Positions 2,911 through 33,645 of a stretch of 34,445 nt of DNA are shown in pieces; positions within the stretch are counted from its first letter, which is position 1, and each line of letters starts with the position of its first letter. Source of the stretch: an uncultured Candidatus Saccharibacteria bacterium (lineage in GTDB: Bacteria > Patescibacteriota > Minisyncoccia > Phycocordibacterales > Phycocordibacteraceae). The DNA lies in the NCBI GenBank assembly GCA_964565655.1, contig CAZMFT010000003.1, positions 9,061-43,505 of the forward strand. Direction: 5' to 3'. The notes below the pieces were generated by a model that searched no databases, was not told where the DNA came from, and worked only from the letters and a program-made list of their open reading frames with translations. The translations under genes were made by a program, and so were the position numbers.

Positions 2911-3400
2911 AATGCTCTCGCTGCCGCCTGGAGCCCCGAAGCGGTCCTACGGCGTCCCACTCCTCCTTCTCGCGCTCGTCGCTATCGTCGCGCTCACGAG
3001 CGGGTATTTCGCGCTTGGTGAGCCGCGCATAACCGACCAGGCAGCCTCGGTCGAGGCCGAGAAGAAGGGTGTCTCGGCTCCTGCGACTGTCCTCGACCAG
3101 CAGGCAGGGAAGTCGGTCACCGTGCGCGAGGTGAATATGCCGGCACCCGGCGTCTGGGTCGCGATTGCTGAGATGCGCGGAGATGTCGTCTGGCGTGTCT
3201 TAGGTGCTCGCCACGCGTTCTCCAAAGGCACTGATTTTCCTGTCGGTCTCCTTCGTCCCACTGTCCCGAACGCCGAGTATGCAGTCATCCTCTTTACGGA
3301 CGACGGTGACGGGATATTCGAGCTCCATGGTGACGCGCCGGTAGAGGACCAGGTATCCGGAGAGCGCTTCCGTGCTGATTTCAAGACAGCCGCGATTTGA
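2903..3400 (+). CDS. membrane-anchored hypothetical protein (165 aa)
   Basis: TM helix VPLLLLALVAIVALTSGYFAL followed by a soluble domain. Its start overlaps the upstream stop by 8 nt. Confidence 0.55.
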   Translation: MPEMLSLPPGAPKRSYGVPLLLLALVAIVALTSGYFALGEPRITDQAASVEAEKKGVSAPATVLDQQAGKSVTVREVNMPAPGVWVAIAEMRGDVVWRVLGARHAFSKGTDFPVGLLRPTVPNAEYAVILFTDDGDGIFELHGDAPVEDQVSGERFRADFKTAAI

Positions 3401-3430
3401 GCCCCGGACCTCGTCGCGTAGAATGGGCCT

Positions 3431-4207
3431 ATGGCGTGGAAATCTAAGACGTTCGACCCCTCCTCCTCCGAGCCCTTTACGATAAGTCGTTCGAAGATAG
3501 ACCTCTTCTCCGAGTGCAAGCGCTGCTCGTATCTCGACCTTCGCCTCGGGGTGAAGCGCCCGTCAGGACCTTCCTTCACGCTCAATAACGCGGTCGATGA
3601 GCTCTTCAAGAACGAGTTCGATGCGCACCGAGCTGCAGGATCGTCGCACCCATTGATGAAGCAGTACGGGATAGACGCCGTGCCGCTCAAAGACGATCGC
3701 CTCACGGAATGGCGCGACGCGCTGAAGCGCGGCGTAAAGACGCATCACGAGGAGACGAACCTTATCGTGCGCGGCGGCATAGACGATGTGTGGGTTGCGC
3801 CTTCGGGAGAGCTCATCGTCGTCGACTATAAGGCGACCTCGAAGAAGGAGGCGCCGACGACCGAAGATGACCTCTATCCGTCCTACAAGAAGCAGATAGA
3901 GGTGTACCAGTGGCTCTTCCGCCGGAACGGCTTCAAGGTCTCGCCGACCGGCTATTTCGTCTACGCGAACGGCCGTTCTGATAAGGAAGCGTTCGATGCG
4001 AAGCTCGAATTCGACATCAATCTGGTGCCGTACACGGGCGACGACGCATGGATAGAGCCGACCCTGCACGAGCTTAAGGCAACCATGATGTCGGATGAGA
4101 TACCGGAAGTAGGTACGGCGTTCGGCGGCGGCCCCTGCGATTTCTGCACGTACCGAGAAGCGGCCGGCAAGATCCTCCTTTCCATCCATAAGGCGAGGAA
4201 GAAATGA
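3431..4207 (+). CDS. PD-(D/E)XK nuclease family protein (Cas4/RecB-like fold) with CxxC...CxxC
   Basis: GGIDDVWV...ELIVVDYKATSKK (D ... D-x-K core). Cys pairs CKRC near the N-terminus and CDFC near the C-terminus. TAGAAT box at 3419-3424 lies 6 nt before the ATG. Confidence 0.7.
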   Translation: MAWKSKTFDPSSSEPFTISRSKIDLFSECKRCSYLDLRLGVKRPSGPSFTLNNAVDELFKNEFDAHRAAGSSHPLMKQYGIDAVPLKDDRLTEWRDALKRGVKTHHEETNLIVRGGIDDVWVAPSGELIVVDYKATSKKEAPTTEDDLYPSYKKQIEVYQWLFRRNGFKVSPTGYFVYANGRSDKEAFDAKLEFDINLVPYTGDDAWIEPTLHELKATMMSDEIPEVGTAFGGGPCDFCTYREAAGKILLSIHKARKK

Positions 4208-4210
4208 AAG

Positions 4211-4244
4211 AAGGTACATGACTGACTAGTCAGTCATGTACCTT
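4211..4244. repeat. 34-bp perfect palindrome between convergent genes (possible bidirectional terminator or protein site)
   Basis: AAGGTACATGACTGACT|AGTCAGTCATGTACCTT: the two halves are exact reverse complements. It contains TGA, TGA and TAG in three different frames on each strand. Confidence 0.6.
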
Positions 4245-4690
4245 CGGAGCCGTTGCTCCTCGACTCGCTTCACCAGCATCTTGAGCCTTCGCCGCGAGAT
4301 GGCGTCCTTCTCGAGTCTTGCGAGGAATCCGGCGTAATCCTTGCCGCTTCGACGCAGCTGTCCGAGCCGCGAGTAGAGCGTCGAACGGAGCTGATCGTCG
4401 GTCTTGCGCGAGTCGACGACGAAGAGAAAAACGTGCTCTACGACGTCTGGAGTCGCATGCTTGAGGAATCGCTCACGTCCGTATCGCGAGATCTTCACCT
4501 GTATGGGGATGCGGATCTCGTTTCCTTCGATGCAGCTGCAATACGCAAACGCGTCGATGCCCCGAATGTCCCAGAGCACGCCGGCATCTTCGATGCTTCG
4601 AAGCCACTTCGGCGTCCACGCGACACGCTCACTGGCGAGTTTCAAGAATCGCCGCTCGGCCCGGGCGCCAAGCAGCTCATGCTTAAGCAC
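4226..4690 (-). CDS. hypothetical protein (154 aa), possibly nuclease-fold
   Basis: GTG start with SD AGGAGG (complement of 4696-4701) 5 nt upstream. GIDAFAY...IPIQVK loosely resembles a D...(E/Q)xK core. Basic C-terminal tail. Confidence 0.5.
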   Translation of the reverse strand: MLKHELLGARAERRFLKLASERVAWTPKWLRSIEDAGVLWDIRGIDAFAYCSCIEGNEIRIPIQVKISRYGRERFLKHATPDVVEHVFLFVVDSRKTDDQLRSTLYSRLGQLRRSGKDYAGFLARLEKDAISRRRLKMLVKRVEEQRLRRYMTD

Positions 4691-4776
4691 GGGAACCTCC
4701 TGTCCTGTTCTTTTTCGACCCTAGCACGGCTCAGGCAAGAGCGTCCACAAAAAGCGGCTTGGTATACTCGAGTACA

Positions 4777-5040
4777 ATGAAAACAGAGTTCGCAGATAAG
4801 GTCCGGGATGTCGTCCGGAACATTCCGAGGGGGAAGACTATGTCGTATCAGGAAGTAGCGGCGCGAGCAGGGAAGCCGGGCGCTGCGCGCGCCGTGGGCA
4901 CCATCATGAAGAACAACTACCTTCCGGATGTCCCCTGCCACCGCGTCGTCCGTGCGGACGGGAAGATAGGGGAATATAACCGAGGCGGACCCGCGAAGAA
5001 GCGGGCGCTCCTCGTTTTAGAAGGGGCTATTGACAAATAG
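4777..5040 (+). CDS. MGMT-family protein (methylated-DNA--protein-cysteine methyltransferase DNA-binding/active-site domain only)
   Basis: IPRGKTMSYQEVAARAGKPGAARAVG...VPCHRVV carries the PCHRV active-site motif. I prefer ATG 4777 (TATACT box 4763-4768) over the TTG 4759 of the ORF track. Confidence 0.8.
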   Translation: MKTEFADKVRDVVRNIPRGKTMSYQEVAARAGKPGAARAVGTIMKNNYLPDVPCHRVVRADGKIGEYNRGGPAKKRALLVLEGAIDK

Positions 5041-5106
5041 CCCAAAATAGGCTATCCTTATACGCGGTGGGGTGTCGGATAGGGTCTCTCATTCAGGAGC
5101 CCAGCG

Positions 5107-5358
5107 ATGTCCAGCGTTCGTTCAGTTTTCTTCAATCTCTCACTTCTGTGTGCGATCGCGACGCTCGCGATCTGGGTGAACAGCGTATTTGCGGTCTACG
5201 ACTGCGAGCTCGCGAACAACCCGATCTGCAAGGTCATGATCTTCGGTGTGGAGTCGTCCGATGTCGCTATCGCTGGCGTGCTTATCGCCTGCTTTCTCGC
5301 GATCGTCTGGAGCGCCTTGCCGAAGCCTGCGCCTATAGCGAAGCAGCACGAGGAGTGA
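5107..5358 (+). CDS. small membrane protein (83 aa, 2 predicted TM)
   Basis: SD AGGAG at 5095-5099. Two hydrophobic segments. Followed by a strong terminator. Confidence 0.5.
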   Translation: MSSVRSVFFNLSLLCAIATLAIWVNSVFAVYDCELANNPICKVMIFGVESSDVAIAGVLIACFLAIVWSALPKPAPIAKQHEE

Positions 5359-5365
5359 TGACCAA

Positions 5366-5398
5366 GGGGCCAGCCGCATACCGCGCTGGCCCCTTTTC
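5366..5398 (+). terminator. intrinsic terminator
   Basis: GGGGCCAGC (5366-5374) / GCTGGCCCC (5385-5393), a 9-bp stem, then TTTT (5394-5397). Confidence 0.8.
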
Positions 5399-5415
5399 GT
5401 TATACTGGCCGCACT

Positions 5416-6087
5416 ATGGCGCTCGTCATCGAGGAGAGCTGGAAGGAGGCACTTAGGGGCGAGTTCGAGAAGCCCTATTTCAACCAACTCGGCGAGTTCG
5501 TGAAGGCCGAATATCTTGCCGGTCCCACGTATCCAGGCCCCAAGAATATCTTCCGTGCCTTTGAACTCGCGCCGTTCGACACGGTGAAGGTCGTCATACT
5601 CGGTCAAGACCCGTACCACGGGCAGGGGCAGGCGAACGGATTGTCGTTTGCGGTTAATGAGGGCGTACGAAACCCGCCATCCCTGCAGAACATGTTCGAG
5701 GAGATCGAGTCGGAGTTCGGCGAGCCAATGAAGAATACCAGTGGTGATCTGTCACGCTGGGCCAAACAAGGAGTGCTGCTTTTGAACGCGACACTCACTG
5801 TCCGCGCAAAGTCTCCAGGCTCGCACCAGGGGCGTGGCTGGGAGGAATTCACGGACGCAGCCGTCAAAGCGCTTTCCGATAAGCGCGAGCATCTCGTATT
5901 CATGTTGTGGGGAAGATACGCGAAGGAGAAGGGTGCGCATATAGACCGCGAGAAGCACCTGGTACTAGAATCCCCGCACCCTTCGCCCTATTCAGCGGCG
6001 TCAGGTTTTTTTGGTAACGGCCATTTCAAGCGCGCGAACGAATACCTCGCATCTCACGGCCTCACGCCTATCGATTGGCTCTCGTAA
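5416..6087 (+). CDS. ung: uracil-DNA glycosylase (family 1)
   Basis: GQDPYHGQGQANGLSFAV and HPSPYSA motifs, 223 aa. TATACT box at 5401-5406 lies 9 nt before the ATG. Confidence 0.92.
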   Translation: MALVIEESWKEALRGEFEKPYFNQLGEFVKAEYLAGPTYPGPKNIFRAFELAPFDTVKVVILGQDPYHGQGQANGLSFAVNEGVRNPPSLQNMFEEIESEFGEPMKNTSGDLSRWAKQGVLLLNATLTVRAKSPGSHQGRGWEEFTDAAVKALSDKREHLVFMLWGRYAKEKGAHIDREKHLVLESPHPSPYSAASGFFGNGHFKRANEYLASHGLTPIDWLS

Positions 6088-27418: not shown

Positions 27419-27919
27419 ATGAAAGCGATAAAGGTAGGGAAGAGCACGATAGAGGGCAACGGCATATTCGCCGCGGAGCCGATTCGTCGTGGCGACCGTA
27501 TCCAATACATCGCAGGGAAGATAGTGAAGAAGCTACCGAAGACCAAAGAAGAGGCGCTTTCCATACCTAACTGGTTCGGCTTGAGCCGTCAGAACTGGAT
27601 CGATCCGGAGGGCACACCGTTCCGATTCCTCAACCATTCCTGCGAACCGAACGCGGCAATCGCGGGCCGGAAGATCCTCACGGCGCTCCGCGACATAAGC
27701 GAGGACGAAGAGATAACCATCGACTATTCCATCACGGATGCGGACACTTTGTGGGAGATGCCGTGCCTCTGCAAAGCGAAGACCTGCCGCAAGACCATAC
27801 GCTCTATACAGTCCGTCCCGACGGATGTCTTCAATCGACACATGCCGTATATCCCCAGGTATTTCCAACGTCTCTATATTCGCAATTACATCAAGGGCAG
27901 GCTAAAATCGGGAATATGA
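27419..27919 (+). CDS. SET-domain protein (putative lysine methyltransferase) with post-SET Cys cluster
   Basis: GNGIFAAEPIRRGDRI, RFLNHSCEPNA, EEITIDYS, CLCKAKTCRK. Extended -10 TGgTATAAT at 27385-27393. Confidence 0.8.
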   Translation: MKAIKVGKSTIEGNGIFAAEPIRRGDRIQYIAGKIVKKLPKTKEEALSIPNWFGLSRQNWIDPEGTPFRFLNHSCEPNAAIAGRKILTALRDISEDEEITIDYSITDADTLWEMPCLCKAKTCRKTIRSIQSVPTDVFNRHMPYIPRYFQRLYIRNYIKGRLKSGI

Positions 27920-28104: not shown

Positions 28105-29766
28105 ATGGAACTCTACGGATGCGAATGGAACGCGGCCTGGCTCCTCATCTTCTCCGATAACGTCGGGCCCTTCATCTATTACTCCCACCTCGCGCCGATG
28201 ATCGCGTCGCTCATACTCGGTACCGTCGTCCTTCTCAATAACCGCCGCGGGCTCACGAACTGGGCCCTGTTCATGGTCACGCTCGCCTTCGCAGCCTACT
28301 GCTACATCGACCTCATCCTCTGGGCATCGCCAAGCCCGGAGCACGTCATCTTCTTCTGGCAGATGATCGTTCCGATAGAGCTCCTCATCTATGCGAGCTC
28401 GCTCTATCTCGTATACCTCTTCGCGAACGGACAGAAAGATATCTCGCTCGGCCGCAAGATAGCGATCGCAGCGCTTTTCATACCGATACTTGCGCTCCTC
28501 CACACCCAGTACACCGTCTCCGGCCTCTCTCCTGACTGCGACGAGGGCGCTATCGAGGGCCCGGTCATCCAGTACCTGTATTTCGCAGAAATGTTCATGA
28601 TCCTCTGGGCGGCGGTCGTCGCGGCAAGCGGCTATCAGAAGCTGAAAGATGTCCGCGAGCGCCGGCAGCTCCTCTTCATCAGCTTCGGCGTCATCTTCTT
28701 CCTCATCGCGTTCTCCGCCGGGAACGTCATCCTGATGCTTTCGCTGGAGACCATCTACGACCAGTACAAGCTGTTCGGCATGCCAGTGTTCCTCGCCTTC
28801 CTCACGTACAGCATCGTGAAGTTCCGTGCATTCAACGCCAAGATACTGCTCGCGCAGGCGCTCGTGATCGCACTCGCCATCCTCACGATCTCGATACTCT
28901 TCCTGCGCACTATCGAGAACGTCCAGATAGTCACCGTCGCGACCTTCATCCTGGTGTGTATCCTCGGATTCATCCTGATTCGTAACGTCAGGCGCGAGGT
29001 CGATCTGCGCCAGCAGACGCAGAAGCTCGCCCAGGAACTCGCGGAGACGAATCAGCGCCAGGAGAGCCTCATCCACTTCGTCGGTCACGAGGTCAAGGGC
29101 TTCTTGACTAAGGATATCGCCGTATTCGCGGCGCTCGTCGAAGGCGACCTCGGACAGCTTCCAGACAGTATGAAGCCGTTCGTCGAGAACGCCCTATCGC
29201 AAAGCCGTGACGGCGCCACGTCCGTTATCGACATACTCCATGCGTCGAATCAGAAGAAGGGGACCGTCGAATACCATAAGCAACCGTTCGATTTCGCTGC
29301 GCTTGTAAAGAAATGGGCGGAGAAACTGAAGCCTGTCGCAGAGAAGAAGGGTCTCACGCTCTCCCTTACCATCGACGAGACGGCGGGCTCCTACACACTC
29401 ATCGGCGACGAATCGCAAACCGGCGACCATGTGTTGCGGAACCTCATCGAGAATGCCATCAACTACACGCCCACGGGCAGCATCTCACTCTCGCTCGCGA
29501 AGAAGGGCCCGTTCGCGGTCTTTACGGTCGCGGATACGGGCGTCGGCATATCCACCGAGGATAGGCGTCGCCTCTTCACTGAAGGCGGGCACGGCAAGGA
29601 CTCGTTGAAGATAAACGCGCATTCCACCGGCTACGGTCTCTTCATAGCGAAAAACATCATTGAAGCCGAGGGTGGCACCGTTCGCGCAGAGTCAGAAGGT
29701 CCGGGCAAGGGTTCGCAGTTCATCGTGGCCTTGCCGCTCGATGCCGACCATCATGCTGCGCGTTAA
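28105..29766 (+). CDS. sensor histidine kinase with N-terminal multi-TM (HisKA_7TM-like) sensor region
   Basis: About 8 TM helices. H-box HFVGHEVKG, N-box LRNLIENAINYT, G1 DTGVGI, G2 GYGLFIAKN. Confidence 0.9.
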   Translation: MELYGCEWNAAWLLIFSDNVGPFIYYSHLAPMIASLILGTVVLLNNRRGLTNWALFMVTLAFAAYCYIDLILWASPSPEHVIFFWQMIVPIELLIYASSLYLVYLFANGQKDISLGRKIAIAALFIPILALLHTQYTVSGLSPDCDEGAIEGPVIQYLYFAEMFMILWAAVVAASGYQKLKDVRERRQLLFISFGVIFFLIAFSAGNVILMLSLETIYDQYKLFGMPVFLAFLTYSIVKFRAFNAKILLAQALVIALAILTISILFLRTIENVQIVTVATFILVCILGFILIRNVRREVDLRQQTQKLAQELAETNQRQESLIHFVGHEVKGFLTKDIAVFAALVEGDLGQLPDSMKPFVENALSQSRDGATSVIDILHASNQKKGTVEYHKQPFDFAALVKKWAEKLKPVAEKKGLTLSLTIDETAGSYTLIGDESQTGDHVLRNLIENAINYTPTGSISLSLAKKGPFAVFTVADTGVGISTEDRRRLFTEGGHGKDSLKINAHSTGYGLFIAKNIIEAEGGTVRAESEGPGKGSQFIVALPLDADHHAAR

Positions 29767-30202
29767 GAACACCATTCGATCGAGCCCGATACACGGTATC
29801 GGCCTCTTCGCCGCAGAGGATATTCCGAAAGACACGGTCATCTGGCAATTCGACCCTCGCATGGACCAGATACTCAACCCATCTGTATTTCCCAGCCTTC
29901 CTGAAGCAGCCCAGAGCCTCTTGGTACGGCATGCGTATCGAAGCAAGCGCACGGGGAATTACATCCTTGATTTCGATAACGGACGTTTCTTCAACCATTC
30001 CGATACGCCTAATACCTATACGAAGGTCGTGGACGGCGTTCCAGAGGATGTCATATTCTCAAATTGCGACATCAAGGAAGGACAGGAGCTCACGCTCGAT
30101 TACAGCCTCCAGGAAGACGAGCTCGGCGAGGAGAACGCGATCGTCGCCATGGGCGAGAAGCTTGGCATCGAGGATGACATCGATCCGCGAATCAAGCAGT
30201 AG
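29741..30202 (+). CDS. SET-domain protein (second copy, no post-SET Cys)
   Basis: IHGIGLFAAEDIPKDTVI, RFFNHSDTPNT, GQELTLDYS. ATG 29741 (or 29753) overlaps the kinase 3' end (stop at 29764-29766). The ORF-track TTG 29660 is unlikely. Confidence 0.75.
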   Translation: MPTIMLRVKNTIRSSPIHGIGLFAAEDIPKDTVIWQFDPRMDQILNPSVFPSLPEAAQSLLVRHAYRSKRTGNYILDFDNGRFFNHSDTPNTYTKVVDGVPEDVIFSNCDIKEGQELTLDYSLQEDELGEENAIVAMGEKLGIEDDIDPRIKQ

Positions 30203-30220: not shown

Positions 30221-31474
30221 ATGAACCTGGCAGAAGAGCTCAAGGTGCGCGGGCTTGCGGAGCACACCAGCGCGAACCTCGGGGAGATACTCTCGGAGCC
30301 ACGCACTGCATATCTGGGGATGGACCCGACCGCGGACTCGCTTCATGTCGGTCACTTGGTGCCGATACTCCTTATGCGCCGACTGGGCGCTGCGGGCCAT
30401 AAGCTTATATTCCTCGTCGGGGGCGGTACCGGGATGATCGGCGACCCTCGCGACTCTGGCGAACGGACGCTCCTCGATGAGCGCACTTTGGCGGCGAATA
30501 CCCGCGCGCTGAATCGACAGCTGAAAGTCCTGTTGGGCCGGCTTTCGTTCCGCATGGTGGATAACAACGACTGGCTCTCGCGCGTGAAGCTCATCCCTTT
30601 TTTGCGCGACATCGGCAAGCACTTCACGGTGAATGAGCTCACGAAGCGAGACCTCATCAAGCGTAGGCTCGAAGACCCCAATGACAGCATCTCCTACACG
30701 GAATTCACGTATTCCTTGCTACAGGGATACGACTACCTCTACCTTAACGAAAAGTACGGCACGGACCTTCAAGTGGGCGGGTCCGACCAGTGGACCAATA
30801 TGCTTTCGGGCGTCGAATTGATCCGTCGGAAAGCGGGGAAGGAGGCGTTCGTCATCACGGCACCTATCATCACGGATTCCTCTGGCAAGAAATTTGGCAA
30901 ATCAGAAGGTAACGCCGTCTGGCTCGACCCTAAAAAGACCTCGCGCTTCAAGTTCTACCAATTCTGGCTCAATCTTCCGGACGATAACCTCGAGCGCTAT
31001 TTCCACGCATACACTATGCTCCCGGTAGGGGACGTCGAGGCACTCCTTATCCGCCATCGCGCGGCCCCGCATGCGCGCGAGGCGCAGGAGACCCTTGCGC
31101 GGCTCGTCACCGAGCTTGTGCACGGCCCCGCCGCAGTCGCAAACGCTGCAGCCGCAACCGACGCCCTCTTCGGCACCCAGCCGTTTGCCAAGCTATCACG
31201 CGAGGAGCGCGCGGTCGTGCTTGCAGAGGCGCCATCTGCGACTATTTCCGCCAAAGAAGCCGCCGCTGGGTACCCGCTCGTCGATGCGCTTGTCGCCGGA
31301 GGTCTTGCTGCATCAAAGTCCGATGCCCGTCGCCTTATCGAGGGTCGCGGCATCACGCTCAATGATTTCCAGGTAAAAGAAGCCGACCAGCGCATCCATC
31401 AGGGCGACCTTCCGGGCGGCTTCGGGTTAGTGCGCAAGGGAAAGCGCGACGTCCTCGTTCTCGTGTTGAAATAA
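30221..31474 (+). CDS. tyrS: tyrosine--tRNA ligase
   Basis: HIGH-type HVGHL, KMSKS-type KFGKS, and a C-terminal S4-like domain. TGgTATAGT at 30206-30214 lies 6 nt before the ATG. Confidence 0.95.
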   Translation: MNLAEELKVRGLAEHTSANLGEILSEPRTAYLGMDPTADSLHVGHLVPILLMRRLGAAGHKLIFLVGGGTGMIGDPRDSGERTLLDERTLAANTRALNRQLKVLLGRLSFRMVDNNDWLSRVKLIPFLRDIGKHFTVNELTKRDLIKRRLEDPNDSISYTEFTYSLLQGYDYLYLNEKYGTDLQVGGSDQWTNMLSGVELIRRKAGKEAFVITAPIITDSSGKKFGKSEGNAVWLDPKKTSRFKFYQFWLNLPDDNLERYFHAYTMLPVGDVEALLIRHRAAPHAREAQETLARLVTELVHGPAAVANAAAATDALFGTQPFAKLSREERAVVLAEAPSATISAKEAAAGYPLVDALVAGGLAASKSDARRLIEGRGITLNDFQVKEADQRIHQGDLPGGFGLVRKGKRDVLVLVLK

Positions 31475-31502
31475 GGCCTTAATCCGCTATAATCCGCATG
31501 AC

Positions 31503-31585
31503 GCGTCGGTGGTAGAGTGGTCAATTACAACAGGCTGTAAACCTGTCGGCTTCGGCCTACGGAGGTTCGAATCCTCCCCGGCGCA
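31503..31585 (+). tRNA. tRNA-Tyr (anticodon GTA at 31537-31539), class II long variable arm, CCA not encoded
   Basis: Hand fold: acceptor GCGTCGG/CCGGCGC (one U:G pair), D stem GTAG/TTAC, anticodon stem ACAGG/CCTGT with loop CTGTAAA, variable arm with a GGC-TTCG-GCC hairpin, T arm GGAGG-TTCGAAT-CCTCC. TATAAT at 31488-31493. Confidence 0.85.
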
Positions 31586-31590
31586 CAAAC

Positions 31591-31619
31591 GAAAAGGCCC
31601 GCAAGGGCTCTTTTCATTT
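31591..31619 (+). terminator. putative terminator after tRNA-Tyr
   Basis: GAAAAGGCCC GCAA GGGC-T-CTTTTC, followed by ATTT. Confidence 0.55.
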
Positions 31620-31756
31620 GGGCCGGAGCAGGGTCTGGGAGACCCTGCGTGGAGGATTCGAAAACCTTGCGAGCATAGTTTGCGAACACCTGGAGCAAAC
31701 TATCCGCAAGGTGTACAGAACCTGTAAGGTTCGAAATTCCTCCCCGCTCCGGGTCC
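31620..31756 (+). ncRNA. candidate structured RNA, unit A (tRNA-like closing stems plus conserved hairpin H1); class unknown
   Basis: Closing helix 31620-31629/31746-31756, hairpin 31630-31646, GGAGG..CCTCC pair (31651-55/31739-43), hairpin H1 31665-31711. No credible ORF. Strand assumed from the tRNA-like polarity. Confidence 0.4.
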
Positions 31757-31767
31757 TTTGTTTTGCG

Positions 31768-31977
31768 GCGTCCGGGGAGGATTCGAACGTCGGAGCCGGT
31801 ATACAAGATGAGCGGAGCGAATGCTTGTCGGCGAGACCGGGTCGGGGTTGCGAGCTAGATTCGGAATGCGTGGACGAATCTAGCCGCAAACCGTGACCGA
31901 ATCCCTGATTCGAACGCGAGGCGGGGTCGCGAAATTTTCCAGAAGGAAAATATCTGTGACCGAATCCTTCCCGGCGC
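31768..31977 (+). ncRNA. candidate structured RNA, unit B (12-bp tRNA-Tyr-like acceptor/T-stem minihelix closing about 185 nt, contains hairpin H2); class unknown
   Basis: GCG-T-CCGGGGAGG (31768-31780) pairs with CCTTCCCGGCGC (31966-31977). H2 at 31846-31892. Additional hairpins CGCGA-GGCGGGG-TCGCG and ATTTTCC-AGAA-GGAAAAT. Confidence 0.4.
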
Positions 31978-31992
31978 TTCAGCGTCCAAAAT

Positions 31993-32012
31993 ATGTATCA
32001 TATATGATACAT
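31993..32012. repeat. second copy of the 20-bp palindrome ATGTATCATATATGATACAT
   Basis: Identical to 6142-6161. The right flank C(CC)TCCTCT is also shared. Confidence 0.7.
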
Positions 32013-32187
32013 CCCTCCTCTGCGGCATTTGAATATCTATCCACGAAAGATATCTGACGGTTTGCCTGCCACGTTCCTTATCCACCGTACCTCATCTGAC
32101 CCCCATTCCCAAATCATACGGGCAGGCGTATAGTCCCATCGGCCAGCGTACATTGGTCTTTTTCGTTTCACTTTTGGGGAGGCGTAG

Positions 32188-32637
32188 ATGGATGGAGTAT
32201 CAGTCAGGAGCATAGCCCTTCATGAACTAGAAGGTCGCGTCGCAACACTCTCAACCGACCTCGAGGAGGCGAAAGAGGATTGCCAACGGGGCATTGATTC
32301 GGGAAGGAGGGCGTATCACGAGCAACTTGCTCGGACTCAAAGGGTCCTTCAAGACGACATCGCCGAGATGAAGGCGTACATCGTCGCGATGCGAGAGCCT
32401 CGTGATGTGGTCGGCGCCGGCTGCGTCGTCACGATCAAGCAAGGAAGCAAATGCAAGCAGTTTGCGATCATGCGCATCACGACCAACGTGACGGTGAAGA
32501 AAGGCACGCAGACCGTCATGGTGCTCGGCGACACCAACACGATCGCCCTGAAGCTTCGCTTCAAACGGGTGGGCAGTCAGGTCAAGCTCTATCTCGACGG
32601 CGAGGAGTCGTACTGGACGATCTCCAAGATCGAGTAG
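32188..32637 (+). CDS. coiled-coil plus GreA/GreB C-terminal-domain-like protein (Gre/Rnk-like), tentative
   Basis: SD GGGGAGG at 32176-32182. N-terminal coiled coil. C-terminal VVGAGCVVTIK...FAIM...IALKLRFKRVGSQVKL...YWTISKIE follows the Gre C-terminal-domain pattern. The canonical acidic tip motif was not seen. Confidence 0.4.
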   Translation: MDGVSVRSIALHELEGRVATLSTDLEEAKEDCQRGIDSGRRAYHEQLARTQRVLQDDIAEMKAYIVAMREPRDVVGAGCVVTIKQGSKCKQFAIMRITTNVTVKKGTQTVMVLGDTNTIALKLRFKRVGSQVKLYLDGEESYWTISKIE

Positions 32638-32706: not shown

Positions 32707-33645
32707 ATGGCAAAACCCAGGCTCCTTACCGGCATACAATCGTCCGGCCAGCTCCATATCGGCAACTATTTCGGCGCTCTGAAGCCGTTCGCGGACATAT
32801 ACCGCGAATACGACAGCTTCCTCATGGTCGCGGACTACCACTCGCTGACATCGCTCCGAGATCCTGAAGCCGTCCGCCGCAACAGCCTCGAGGTGGTGAA
32901 GGATTACATCGCTGCAGGCGTCGACCCGGAAGAAGCCGTCATCTTCAAGCAGTCGGACGTATCGGAGCACACGGAACTCGCATGGATATTCGACTGCCTC
33001 GTCACTGTGCCGTTTTTGATGCAGGCGCACTCCTACAAGGACAAGGTGGCGAAGGGACTTGAGGCGAACGCCGGACTCTTTGCGTACCCGATGCTTATGG
33101 CTGCGGACATCCTTCTTTATGACGCGGTCGCAGTGCCTGTCGGCGAGGACCAGCGCCAGCACATCGAATACGCGCGCGAGGCTGCGTCGAAATTCAATAA
33201 CGCATACCAGCCTTTATTTACGGAGCCCAAGGAGATGATCCTTGCGGGCGTCGGCGTCGTCCCCGGCACGGACGGGCAGAAGATGTCTAAGAGCTACGGA
33301 AACACGATCCCGCTCTTTGCGACGAGGGACGAGGTAGCGAAGGCGGTCATGGGCATCGTCACGGACTCCGCAGGCGACCGCCCCGAGAACGTGTACGCCA
33401 TACATAAGCTTCTCAAGTCCGAGGAGGAGCTCGCACCGCTTTACACAGAGTACGCTGGCAAGTACAAGGCGCTCAAAGAGACGCTTATCGAAGACCTCGA
33501 TGCGTATTTTGCCCCTATGCGCGAGAAGCGCGACAGCATCACAGATGACAACGCGCGCGAGGTACTCTCCCGCGGCGCCAAGAAGGCGAAGGTAGTAGCA
33601 GCCGCCAAGATGGAAGCGGTGCGGAAGGCTGTGGGCGTCGCTTGA
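32707..33645 (+). CDS. trpS: tryptophan--tRNA ligase
   Basis: GIQSSGQLHIGNYFGA (HIGH) and KMSKSYGN (KMSKS). TGcTAGGAT at 32692-32700 lies 6 nt before the ATG. Confidence 0.95.
   Translation: MAKPRLLTGIQSSGQLHIGNYFGALKPFADIYREYDSFLMVADYHSLTSLRDPEAVRRNSLEVVKDYIAAGVDPEEAVIFKQSDVSEHTELAWIFDCLVTVPFLMQAHSYKDKVAKGLEANAGLFAYPMLMAADILLYDAVAVPVGEDQRQHIEYAREAASKFNNAYQPLFTEPKEMILAGVGVVPGTDGQKMSKSYGNTIPLFATRDEVAKAVMGIVTDSAGDRPENVYAIHKLLKSEEELAPLYTEYAGKYKALKETLIEDLDAYFAPMREKRDSITDDNAREVLSRGAKKAKVVAAAKMEAVRKAVGVA

What the first reader, a model, noticed from the sequence alone, without database searches (positions are those of the whole stretch)
31620..31977. Two tandem tRNA-like structured RNAs after tRNA-Tyr, each carrying the same hairpin with four compensatory base-pair changes
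No frame with coding character lies between tRNA-Tyr (31503-31585) and the CDS at 32188, and the sequence folds into two units. Unit A (31620-31756): closing helix GGGCCGGAGC / GCTCCGG-G-TCC, which includes a G3:U wobble in a GGG/UCC context. It also has hairpin AGGGTCT-GGG-AGACCCT. GGAGG (31651-55) and CCTCC (31739-43) are flanked by ATTCGAA and TTCGAAATT. These are the T-stem and T-loop words of the neighbouring tRNA-Tyr (GGAGG-TTCGAAT-CCTCC), separated here by about 80 nt. Unit B (31768-31977): a 12-bp closing helix GCG-T-CCGGGGAGG / CCTTCCCGGCGC. This equals the tRNA-Tyr acceptor strands (GCGTCGG/CCGGCGC) fused directly to the T-stem words, again followed by ATTCGAA and preceded on the 3' side by CCGAAT. 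Each unit contains a homologous hairpin, H1 (31665-31711) and H2 (31846-31892). Both have lower stem TTGCG/CGCAA, a bulged A, a G-C pair, a 9-bp upper stem and an 11-nt loop (GAACACCTGGA vs GAATGCGTGGA; GAA..C.TGGA conserved). The upper stems (ATAGTTTGC/GCAAACTAT vs CTAGATTCG/CGAATCTAG) differ at four positions. Every change is compensated (A-T to C-G, T-A to A-T, G-C to C-G, C-G to G-C). That pattern indicates selection on RNA structure. I could not fit either unit to tmRNA, RNase P, SRP or 6S RNA by eye.
Basis: seen in the sequence. Interest (0 to 1): 0.8.

Follow-up and report, generated by a model that had tools for sequence, protein, structure and literature searches.

The report
Structured RNA insertions behind tRNA genes
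The stretch after tRNA-Tyr holds two tandem copies of an uncatalogued family of small gene-less insertions that sit on the 3' ends of tRNA genes in Paceibacteria and encode a conserved folded RNA closed by a copy of the neighbouring tRNA's end; its function is unknown and its closest known relative in design is the poorly understood RtT RNA of E. coli.

Summary
Both units, their closing helices and the two homologous hairpins with four compensated differences are at the stated coordinates.

They are not specific to tRNA-Tyr. A context-free DNA pattern scan and a TyrRS-anchored scan found the same core 30-55 nt downstream of tRNA-Tyr, -Ser, -Asn, -Arg and -Ala genes. It is always on the tRNA strand, and often in tandem arrays.

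Each module is a spacer plus a 100-200 nt multi-helix RNA:
- The 3' strand of the closing helix is a direct copy of the last 15-30 nt of the local tRNA.
- The 5' strand is its complement.

Across 32 distinct units, 90.6% of pair cells pair, against 62% when shuffled and 36-42% when slid. G.U outnumbers A.C 41 to 9, which favours folding of the tRNA-sense strand.

Orthologous empty sites show that spacer plus unit is an insertion of about 140-155 nt that duplicates the tRNA 3' end. Genomic islands integrate at these copies.

Rfam 15 has no match. E. coli RtT has the same design but is not homologous.

The function is inferred, not shown: read-through transcription from the tRNA promoter followed by processing.

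The parts
31466..31493 (+). Promoter-like site (TTGAAA-16-TATAAT, 11 of 12) just upstream of tRNA-Tyr. It is the only promoter-like site on the + strand upstream of the units.
31503..31585 (+). tRNA-Tyr (GUA). The gene does not encode CCA. Its 3' end GGTTCGAATCCTCCCCGGCGCAC is the sequence copied in the units.
31587..31619 (+). Spacer with a terminator-like hairpin (stem 31596-31609, then CTTTTCATTT). Together with the tRNA 3' end and the unit's 5' strand it forms a long imperfect palindrome.
31620..31756 (+). Unit A, an A-type module with a complete conserved core. The 3' strand of its closing helix has diverged from the tRNA copy.
   Evidence: Model R1 hit at 31626-31735, 101.6 bits, E = 6e-21; fold
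31629..31647 (+). hp1: CAGGGUC-UGGGA-GACCCUG. The loop is invariant in the family (partly forced by the search pattern). The stem covaries.
31651..31662 (+). 5' strand of the T-stem-like helix (GGAGG) followed by the AUUCGAA junction.
31664..31712 (+). It has an 8-bp base, a bulged A, a 9-bp upper stem and the 11-nt loop GAACACCUGGA.
31713..31735 (+). GUAC junction, P4 hairpin (AGAACC-UGUAA-GGUUCG) and AA.
31768..31977 (+). Unit B, a composite B-type module. In order: 5' strand plus GGAUUCGAAC-GUCGGAGCCGG, a hairpin with a GAGCGGAGCGAA loop, a P3-like hairpin (H2), two GUGACCGAAUCC junction motifs flanking an AUUCGAA repeat and the GGUCGCG-hairpin module, and a 3' copy of the tRNA end.
   Evidence: the same A-then-B order follows tRNA-Ser in L093
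31848..31889 (+). H2, the P3-type hairpin of unit B, with loop GAAUGCGUGGA.
   Evidence: weak R1 hit at 31819-31914 (17.9 bits, E = 0.19)
31925..31961 (+). Module GGUCGCG-(hairpin)-UGUGACC, which needs G.U pairs on the + strand. It is shared with L001, L003 and L039, where the inner hairpin shows compensatory changes.
31961..31977 (+). Direct copy (16 of 17 nt) of the tRNA-Tyr 3' end: T-loop half, T-stem 3' strand and acceptor 3' strand. It forms the 3' strand of unit B's closing helix.
32188..32637 (+). 149-aa ORF with no Pfam hit, lying with the units in the gap between tRNA-Tyr and trpS. That gap is only 21-80 nt in relatives without units. Context only.
32707..33645 (+). trpS. In empty relatives it lies directly downstream of tRNA-Tyr. 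Context only.

Best explanation
The interval holds two tandem members, one A-type and one composite B-type, of a family of ORF-less insertion modules. These modules occupy the 3' flank of tRNA genes in Paceibacteria, a group within the Candidate Phyla Radiation (CPR). A module is a short spacer, often a terminator-like hairpin, followed by a multi-helix RNA of about 100-200 nt.

The closing helix P1 uses a direct copy of the last 15-30 nt of the local tRNA as its 3' strand. That copy covers the T-loop half, the T-stem 3' strand, the acceptor 3' strand and the discriminator. The 5' strand is its complement. P1 therefore reproduces the 12-bp acceptor/T-stem stack of that tRNA.

Inside P1 are hp1 (UGGGA loop), an AUUCGAA junction, a long P3 hairpin with a bulged A, a GUAC junction, P4 (UGUAA loop), and sometimes a small P5.

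Shown here:
- The family exists behind five tRNA species.
- Its helices covary.
- The folding strand is the tRNA-sense strand.
- Spacer plus unit is an insertion with duplication of the tRNA 3' end relative to orthologous empty sites.
- Units form arrays and mosaics.
- Genomic islands integrate at the tRNA-like 3' ends.

Inferred, not shown:
- The module has no promoter of its own. It is transcribed by read-through from the tRNA promoter, as part of the tRNA precursor.
- It is released as a stable RNA because its ends look like a tRNA acceptor/T minihelix to the tRNA-end processing enzymes. This has been reported for the analogous RtT units of the E. coli tyrT operon.
- The conserved core then acts in trans on an unknown partner.
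- The module spreads and is homogenised by recombination at the shared tRNA 3' end and the TTCGAA T-loop word.
For: Family and context:
- The TyrRS-anchored scan of 80 species genomes shows conserved tyrS-tRNA-Tyr linkage. 14 of 73 classifiable tRNA-Tyr loci, counting the window, carry a unit directly downstream.
- The context-free pattern scan returned 49 metagenome loci. Five of these looked like false positives (one checked). The rest lie 30-55 nt after tRNA-Tyr, -Ser, -Asn, -Arg or -Ala on the same strand, or after a degenerate tRNA 3' half.
- P1 follows the local tRNA. The median exact direct repeat is 15 nt (up to 30), and the median exact inverted match is 12 nt.

Structure:
- 32 distinct units give 90.6% paired cells, against 61.6% shuffled and 36-42% slid.
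- The covariation score is 0.72, against 0.20 shuffled and 0.12 slid.
- 28 of 34 pairs have changes on both sides.
- G.U outnumbers A.C 41 to 9 in the helices that were cut out by position.
- P3 folds as a single hairpin in 32 of 32 units.

Insertion:
- L033 (filled) aligns with L042 (empty) from the last 15 nt of the tRNA into the flank, at 76% over 750 nt; L054 and L058 (also empty) align from the same point at lower identity.
- The gap from tRNA-Tyr to trpS is 21-80 nt in empty loci and 1121 nt in the window.
- Tandem and mosaic units occur.
- Islands are flanked by units.

Expression:
- A strong promoter-like site precedes the tRNA, and none lies between the tRNA and unit A.

Analogue:
- E. 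coli RtT units end in the tRNA-Tyr 3' end and are closed by its complement.
Against: - There is no transcript evidence.
- A terminator-like hairpin lies between the tRNA and unit A, so read-through may be low.
- P1 usually continues 2-5 bp beyond the acceptor into the discriminator and trailer. That is not an ideal substrate for RNase P or RNase Z.
- RNAfold prefers pairing of the tRNA 3' half with the unit's 5' strand over two separate tRNA-like folds.
- G.T pairs are also tolerated in folded single-stranded DNA, so covariation alone does not prove an RNA.
- The P1 3' strand in the covariation set was chosen by best complement, which biases the P1 counts.
- The search pattern forced GAGYA, CTGGGAG and GGATTCGAA to be invariant.
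- The agent that moves the modules is unknown. No recombinase or reverse transcriptase is encoded in cis.
Confidence: 0.5

Rival explanations
1. The units work only at the DNA level. They are attachment-site material, either integrase att scars or recombination sites that fold as single-stranded DNA in the manner of integron attC. The hairpins are recognised by a recombinase and no functional RNA is made.
For: - Direct repeats of the tRNA 3' end flank each module.
- Orthologous sites are either empty or filled.
- Islands carrying a restriction-modification system, a ThiF/arginase/C39/GNAT gene set, or a large serine recombinase lie between tRNA-like ends.
- Each island's right end carries a degenerate tRNA 3' half.
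- The tRNA 3' end, spacer and 5' strand form a long palindrome.
- G.T pairs are tolerated in folded DNA.
Against: - The loops and junctions (UGGGA, AUUCGAA, GUAC, UGUAA) are conserved in sequence across five tRNA contexts while the stems covary. This is more typical of a folded RNA than of att arms.
- Most modules have no recombinase within 5 kb, and no protein family is shared across contexts.
- Units always lie downstream of, and on the same strand as, a strongly promoted tRNA.
- The integron R'/R'' boxes (GTTRRRY/RYYYAAC) are absent, by inspection.
Confidence: 0.17
2. The unit acts in cis on the upstream tRNA. Its 5' strand can pair either with the tRNA's 3' half, blocking tRNA folding or maturation, or with the unit's own 3' strand, releasing the tRNA. 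The core would sense a signal that sets the choice.
For: - The unit's 5' strand is complementary to the tRNA 3' half plus trailer (20 nt at 95% in the window).
- The minimum-free-energy folds of tRNA+spacer+unit in the window, L003, L010 and L053 all choose the tRNA-to-unit pairing.
- The unit always follows the tRNA on the same strand.
Against: - The alternative pairing is an unavoidable by-product of a P1 built from a copy of the tRNA end.
- Co-transcriptional folding would form the tRNA first.
- Second and later units in arrays, and units displaced kilobases from the tRNA by islands, keep intact structures.
- No ligand-pocket-like conservation was identified.
Confidence: 0.1
3. The unit is a mimic of the acceptor/T arm of the cognate tRNA and acts as a decoy or substrate. 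It would be charged or bound by the synthetase, the CCA-adding enzyme, EF-Tu, or a tRNA-targeting toxin or nuclease.
For: - P1 reproduces the 7+5 bp acceptor/T stack and the discriminator of the neighbouring tRNA.
- The hp1 loop contains GG and the junction contains UUCGA, resembling the D-loop/T-loop elbow.
- 7 of about 21 Tyr-type units are followed by CCA although the neighbouring tRNA gene lacks it.
Against: - The Ala-type unit replaces G3.U70 with A-U and has two mismatches in the acceptor part.
- Several units have mismatches in the acceptor part of P1, for example L056 and L025.
- P1 usually pairs through the discriminator.
- No unit is called by ARAGORN or by the Rfam tRNA model RF00005.
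Confidence: 0.08
4. The unit is a leader or riboswitch of the T-box type that regulates the downstream 149-aa ORF and trpS.
For: - The position between tyrS/tRNA-Tyr and trpS.
- The complementarity to a tRNA.
Against: - There is no T-box or other cis-regulatory Rfam hit even at E <= 10.
- Downstream genes differ between loci, and many units are followed by terminators.
- The unit stays with the tRNA when the tRNA is on the strand opposite to tyrS (L033, L053).
- Empty relatives have trpS 21-80 nt after the tRNA.
- A separate promoter-like site lies at 32106-32134.
Confidence: 0.02
5. The units are decayed tRNA-Tyr pseudogenes or chance palindromes.
For: tRNA-derived words occur at both ends of each unit.
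Against: - The same non-tRNA core occurs behind five tRNA species and covaries.
- The model gives E = 6e-21 for unit A.
- The fold z-score is -7.4.
Confidence: 0.02

Closest known systems
RtT RNA (Rfam RF00391; rttR, the repeats of the E. coli tyrT/tyrV operon)
   Same: - It lies directly downstream of a tRNA gene (tRNA-Tyr) on the same strand, in tandem copies.
- Each unit ends in a copy of the tRNA 3' end (AAUCCUUCCCCCACCACCA).
- Each unit is closed by a helix between that copy and a complementary 5' strand (GGGGAAGGAU).
- Its function is still unknown (10.1101/2024.07.17.603846).
   Different: - There is no sequence or model similarity. RF00391 gives no hit in the window at E <= 10, nor in six other loci at E <= 0.5.
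- The inner structure differs: hp1, P3 and P4 with UGGGA and UGUAA loops.
- The CPR family serves at least five tRNA species and is modular and mosaic.
- The CPR family is demonstrably present or absent at orthologous sites.
tRNA-gene-targeting integrative elements and genomic islands (att sites in the tRNA 3' end)
   Same: - A direct repeat of the tRNA 3' end bounds the inserted DNA.
- Tandem accretion occurs at one tRNA.
- Islands with cargo, and in L125 a large serine recombinase, use the same sites.
   Different: - The modules are about 140-210 nt and have no integrase or any ORF.
- They carry an inverted copy of the target.
- They encode a covarying, conserved fold.
tRNA-like domains of tmRNA and bacterial Y-RNA-like YrlA (comparison from my own knowledge)
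   Same: An acceptor/T-stem-like stack is formed by the 5' and 3' ends, with the rest of the tRNA body replaced by other helices. The word GGAUUCGA near the 5' end also occurs in tmRNA.
   Different: - ARAGORN finds no tmRNA and Rfam gives no tmRNA hit.
- There is no separate T-arm hairpin, no tag reading frame and no linked rsr gene.
- P1 copies whichever tRNA is adjacent.
ncRNAs expressed as passengers of tRNA genes (plant dicistronic tRNA-snoRNA genes processed by RNase Z; MALAT1/mascRNA)
   Same: A non-coding RNA placed next to a tRNA or tRNA-like structure uses the tRNA promoter and/or RNase P/Z for end formation. The tRNA-snoRNA case is cited in PMC12045711, refs 66-67.
   Different: Those systems are eukaryotic, have no copy of the tRNA end in the passenger, and are not insertion polymorphisms. 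Processing has not been tested for the CPR units.
IS110 bridge RNA and retroviral primer-binding site (working analogies only)
   Same: An element-borne RNA segment is complementary to the target or to a tRNA 3' end, and changes with the target.
   Different: No IS110-type recombinase or reverse transcriptase lies near any unit. The complementarity is to the genomic trailer rather than to CCA in CCA-less loci. None of this was tested.

Membership tests
RtT RNA (RF00391) | Match to the Rfam covariance model at or above the gathering score (45 bits) | tested here: not met
   There is no RF00391 hit in window 31400-32300 at E <= 10, nor in L010, L103, L097, L123, L129 or L093 at E <= 0.5. The same search gives 133-137 bits on the E. 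coli locus.
RtT RNA (RF00391) | Unit lies downstream of a tRNA gene on the same strand, ends in a copy of the tRNA 3' end, and is closed by pairing of that copy with a 5' complement | tested here: met
   Window. Family. E. coli reference.
RtT RNA (RF00391) | Released from the tRNA operon transcript by processing | not testable with these tools
   No transcript data are available. The only indirect evidence is a promoter-like site before the tRNA and none before unit A.
tRNA | Cloverleaf recognised by ARAGORN or RF00005 | tested here: not met
   Only 31503-31585 is called in the window. No unit in the other loci is called.
tmRNA | tRNA-like domain plus tag reading frame, detected by ARAGORN or the Rfam tmRNA models | tested here: not met
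   ARAGORN finds no tmRNA in the window. The Rfam E-value search gives no tmRNA hit.
T-box leader (RF00230) | Stem I with specifier, a T-box antiterminator, and a position upstream of the regulated aaRS gene | tested here: not met
   There is no hit at E <= 10. The downstream genes vary.
Integrase-borne island at a tRNA gene | Direct repeat of the tRNA 3' end at both borders of the inserted DNA | tested here: met
Integrase-borne island at a tRNA gene | Element encodes its own tyrosine or serine recombinase | tested here: not met
   There is no ORF inside the units. None of the six window ORFs scanned against Pfam is a recombinase. No shared neighbouring family was found. Among the islands examined, only L125's carries a serine recombinase.
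Integron attC site | R''/R' boxes (RYYYAAC...GTTRRRY) at the ends of an imperfect palindrome, in cassette arrays | tested here: not met
   The unit ends are tRNA-derived (for example UGUGCGCCGG...CCGGCGCACA) and have no AAC/GTT boxes, by inspection. Cargo is not regularly interleaved with units.
MITE / DNA transposon | Element-specific terminal inverted repeats, a short fixed-length target duplication, and dispersed copies | tested here: not met
   The terminal repeats change with the neighbouring tRNA. All of the roughly 44 context-free hits lie at tRNA 3' ends or their remnants. There is one locus in the 34-kb window.

The most novel reading that the evidence does not exclude
The module is a non-autonomous, self-targeting mobile element in which the RNA itself specifies the landing site. 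The 5' strand of P1 is complementary to the tRNA 3' end plus trailer. It would act as a programmable guide, as in a bridge RNA, or as a primer-binding site. The transcript layout would then be R (tRNA end) - spacer - PBS - body - R. Under this reading the module homes to the 3' end of whichever tRNA its P1 matches, using a recombinase or reverse transcriptase supplied in trans. This would explain why both P1 strands change with the tRNA while the core stays constant.
Probability: 0.08. Interest if true: 0.9.

Novelty: new variant of a known kind. Interest (0 to 1): 0.66.

Why it matters
Paceibacteria and other CPR bacteria have tiny genomes with very little non-coding DNA. A recurrent, elaborately folded, ORF-less module is therefore unlikely to be neutral.

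The family gives the poorly understood E. coli RtT RNA its first clear design analogue. It has dozens of diverse members behind five tRNA species, which makes comparative analysis of this kind of tRNA-trailer RNA possible.

It also marks, and multiplies, the sites where genomic islands enter these genomes. These islands include a restriction-modification system, a small ThiF/arginase/C39/GNAT gene cluster, and a serine-recombinase element.

The way both strands of the closing helix follow the neighbouring tRNA raises a testable question: how does a 140-nt element with no genes find and copy tRNA 3' ends?

Tried and rejected
- **Rfam 15.** Searches at gathering and E-value thresholds on the window and six other loci found only tRNA plus noise.
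- **ARAGORN.** It found no tmRNA and no extra tRNA.
- **Tyr-anticodon mimic.** I first read the P4 loop CUGUAAG as a GUA anticodon mimic. This is rejected because the same UGUAA loop occurs behind tRNA-Ser, -Asn, -Arg and -Ala.
- **Alanine identity.** The G3:U pair is not kept in the Ala-type unit.
- **Coding.** The ORFs across the units are not conserved. Unit lengths differ by amounts that are not multiples of three, and the substitutions are compensatory.
- **Phage or plasmid origin.** There were no BLAST hits in the phage or plasmid collections and no pattern hits in IMG/VR.
- **Associated protein.** All-vs-all BLASTP of 317 ORFs near units found only tRNA-Tyr-locus synteny genes. No family was shared across tRNA contexts.
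- **TIGR arrays.** These occur in CPR (PMC12045711) but have 36-nt units and a Tas protein, so they are unrelated.
- **Literature.** Searches for a described CPR tRNA-flank RNA found nothing.
- **Full-length covariance model.** MAFFT misaligned the P1 strands, which vary with the tRNA. I therefore built the model on the core only and counted P1 on fixed-length constructs.
Full report
**1. The observation**

- ARAGORN and Rfam place tRNA-Tyr(GUA) at 31503-31585/6 and find nothing else in the 34-kb window.
- The repeat finder independently reports three things: the H1/H2 repeat; a 17-nt copy (94%) of the tRNA 3' end at 31961-77; and a 20-nt, 95% inverted match between the tRNA 3' end and 31772-91.
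- The upper stems of H1 and H2 differ at four positions on each strand, and all nine pairs stay Watson-Crick in both.
- The + strand folds at -192.5 kcal/mol (z = -7.4). The - strand folds at -170.4 kcal/mol.

**2. Setting**

The window comes from a Paceibacteria/Kaiserbacteria-like CPR genome, judged from the TyrRS relatives. The gene order is:
- tyrS (30221-31474)
- a strong promoter-like site (31466-93)
- tRNA-Tyr
- a terminator-like hairpin (31596-31609)
- units A and B
- a 149-aa ORF with no Pfam hit
- trpS

**3. Relatives at the same locus**

A TyrRS profile scan of one genome per species returned 80 loci. The tyrS-tRNA-Tyr linkage is nearly universal among them. 14 of 73 classifiable tRNA-Tyr loci, counting the window, carry a related unit directly after the tRNA.

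In L003 the T-stem of tRNA-Tyr is GCAGG/CCUGC, and the unit's helix has changed in the same way. There, 22 nt of the unit's 3' end are identical to the tRNA end plus trailer.

**4. Not a tRNA-Tyr feature**

A context-free pattern (GAGYA-N3-5-CTGGGAG-N10-13-GGATTCGAA) found nothing in IMG/VR and 49 loci in JGI metagenomes. Five of these looked like false positives, one of which was checked.

The rest lie 30-55 nt downstream of tRNA-Tyr, -Ser, -Asn, -Arg or -Ala, always on the tRNA strand. Where there is no tRNA, they lie behind a degenerate tRNA 3' half.

In every case the unit's 3' end copies the local tRNA's 3' end. The median exact repeat is 15 nt and the longest is 30 nt. The 5' strand is the complement.

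This rules out my first idea that the CUGUAAG loop mimics the Tyr anticodon.

**5. Architecture and covariation**

The A-type unit reads, 5' to 3':
- acceptor-like 5' strand
- GAGYA
- hp1 (loop UGGGA)
- CGU
- T-stem-like 5' strand
- AUUCGAA
- P3 (8-bp base, bulged A, variable upper stem, often an 11-nt GA...GAA loop)
- GUAC
- P4 (loop UGUAA)
- AA
- an optional P5 (GCG-UACU-CGC)
- T-stem-like 3' strand
- acceptor 3' strand and discriminator

I cut 32 distinct units into fixed-length pieces by position and counted the pairs.
- 90.6% of cells pair, against 61.6% when shuffled and 36-42% when the partners are slid.
- The covariation score is 0.72, against 0.20 shuffled and 0.12 slid.
- 28 of 34 pairs show changes on both sides.

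Two caveats apply. The P1 3' strand was chosen by best complement. The search pattern fixed three motifs.

In hp1, P3 and P4, G.U outnumbers A.C 41 to 9, so the tRNA-sense strand is the one that folds. P3 folds as one hairpin in 32 of 32 units and in the window's H2.

A core covariance model scores unit A at 101.6 bits (E = 6e-21). It scores the inner part of unit B weakly, at 17.9 bits.

Unit B is a composite. Its GGAUUCGAAC-GNCGGAGCCGG start and its P3-like hairpin recur after an A-type unit behind tRNA-Ser in L093. Its GGUCGCG-hairpin-UGUGACC module recurs in L001, L003 and L039 with compensatory changes.

Between the window and L001 (90% TyrRS identity), modules bounded by AUUCGAA...CGAAUCC are shuffled.

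**6. The units are insertions**

- L033 (filled) aligns with L042 (empty) from the last 15 nt of the tRNA into the flank, at 76% over 750 nt; L054 and L058 (also empty) align from the same point at lower identity. So spacer plus unit is an insertion of about 140-155 nt with a 15-20 nt duplication of the tRNA end.
- L008 keeps only the 3' half of a unit.
- The ancestral order is tyrS-tRNA-Tyr-trpS, with 21-80 nt between tRNA and trpS in empty loci. In the window this gap is 1121 nt.
- Units occur in tandem: identical copies in L129; repeats with different cores in L091 and L109; at least five units in L097.
- Islands lie between tRNA-like ends. L111 carries a restriction-modification system. 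L127 carries GNAT, C39, arginase-like and ThiF genes; L109 has the same site without the island. L119 carries a TrmB-like regulator. L125 carries a large serine recombinase.
- Each island's right end carries a diverged tRNA 3' half.
- No CCA-encoding tRNA-Tyr gene carries a unit (0 of 28), against 14 of 45 CCA-less genes. Fisher's p is 5e-4, not corrected for phylogeny.

**7. What it is not**

- No Rfam 15 family matches.
- ARAGORN finds no tmRNA or second tRNA.
- No T-box is found.
- There is no conserved reading frame.
- There is no phage or plasmid similarity.
- No neighbouring protein family is shared across tRNA contexts.

**8. Closest known**

The E. coli tyrT/tyrV locus carries four RtT units (RF00391, 133-137 bits). 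Each ends in the tRNA-Tyr 3' end and is closed by its complement. The design is the same, but there is no homology. [quoted passage not shown]

**9. How it most likely works**

Shown: a covarying fold on the tRNA strand, insertion with duplication of the tRNA end, and arrays and mosaics.

Inferred: read-through transcription from the tRNA promoter; release as a stable RNA by tRNA-end processing, because P1 reproduces the acceptor/T stack; a core that acts in trans on an unknown partner; and spread by recombination at the tRNA end and the TTCGAA word.

Weak points:
- the intervening terminator-like hairpin;
- P1 pairing beyond the discriminator;
- a predicted alternative pairing with the tRNA 3' half.

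The rival explanations, with my confidence in each, are:
- a purely DNA-level recombination site (0.17);
- a cis regulator of tRNA maturation (0.10);
- an acceptor-arm decoy (0.08);
- a guide- or primer-like role of the 5' strand in homing (0.08, the most novel reading).

**10. Verdict**

This is a real, uncatalogued and widespread family. I file it as a new variant of the RtT kind of tRNA-trailer RNA, with clear mobile-element behaviour and unknown function.

Noticed in passing
L001 1641-2291 (also L010, L025, L053, L111 and about 20 TyrRS loci where tRNA-Tyr starts about 640 nt after tyrS): A roughly 216-aa ORF with an N-terminal helix-turn-helix (Sigma70_r4_2, HTH_23, HTH_7) is inserted between tyrS and tRNA-Tyr in many relatives, and its end overlaps the tRNA 5' end. 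It is absent from the window, where the tRNA starts 29 nt after tyrS. It occurs both with and without units.
   Followed up: partly
window 31993-32012: A perfect 20-bp palindrome, ATGTATCATA/TATGATACAT, lies just after unit B and upstream of the 149-aa ORF. It may be an operator. A promoter-like site on the - strand overlaps it (32033-32004).
   Followed up: no
TyrRS loci L005-L083: 0 of 28 CCA-encoding tRNA-Tyr genes carry a unit, against 14 of 45 CCA-less genes (Fisher p = 5e-4, not corrected for phylogeny). About a third of Tyr-type unit 3' ends are followed by CCA although the neighbouring tRNA gene lacks it. This could mean that the insertion replaces the tRNA's own 3' end and pushes the original end downstream.
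   Followed up: partly
L132 (tRNA-Ser unit); L112 and L118; L090: Secondary insertions lie inside units. About 100 nt sit in the P4 loop flanked by TGTA (L132). A 66-nt two-hairpin block follows GUAC (L112, L118). There is an extra segment inside P3 (L090).
   Followed up: no
L127 3296-6708 versus L109: A 4.2-kb island carries GNAT acetyltransferase, peptidase C39, arginase-family and ThiF-family genes, which looks like a small peptide-modification cluster. It is present between two units in one sample and absent at the same site in another.
   Followed up: partly
L111 (unit-oriented coordinates 3195-5732); L125 (1111-2154, - strand): In L111, a DNA methylase (N6_N4_Mtase) with a putative restriction partner sits between two units. 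In L125, a large serine recombinase sits directly beside tRNA-Tyr, with a unit at the island's far end.
   Followed up: partly
window 27419-27919 and 29660-30202: Two SET-domain-like ORFs (Pfam SET confirmed only for 29660-30202) flank a histidine-kinase gene upstream of tyrS. L002 shows a similar SET and kinase arrangement.
   Followed up: no
P3 apical loops across the family, including window 31684-31694, 31864-31874 and 31809-31820: The apical loops fall into recurrent classes that begin with GA and end with GAA or GGA, for example GAUUUCCUGAA, GAACACCUGGA and GAGCGGAGCGAA. This may be a tandem-G.A or protein-binding motif.
   Followed up: no
window 31503-31760; L003, L010, L053: The minimum-free-energy fold of tRNA+spacer+unit pairs the tRNA's 3' half with the unit's 5' strand. 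In L003, L010 and L053 it also pairs the tRNA's 5' acceptor strand with the unit's 3' strand, which amounts to a tRNA with a giant insertion in the T-loop.
   Followed up: partly
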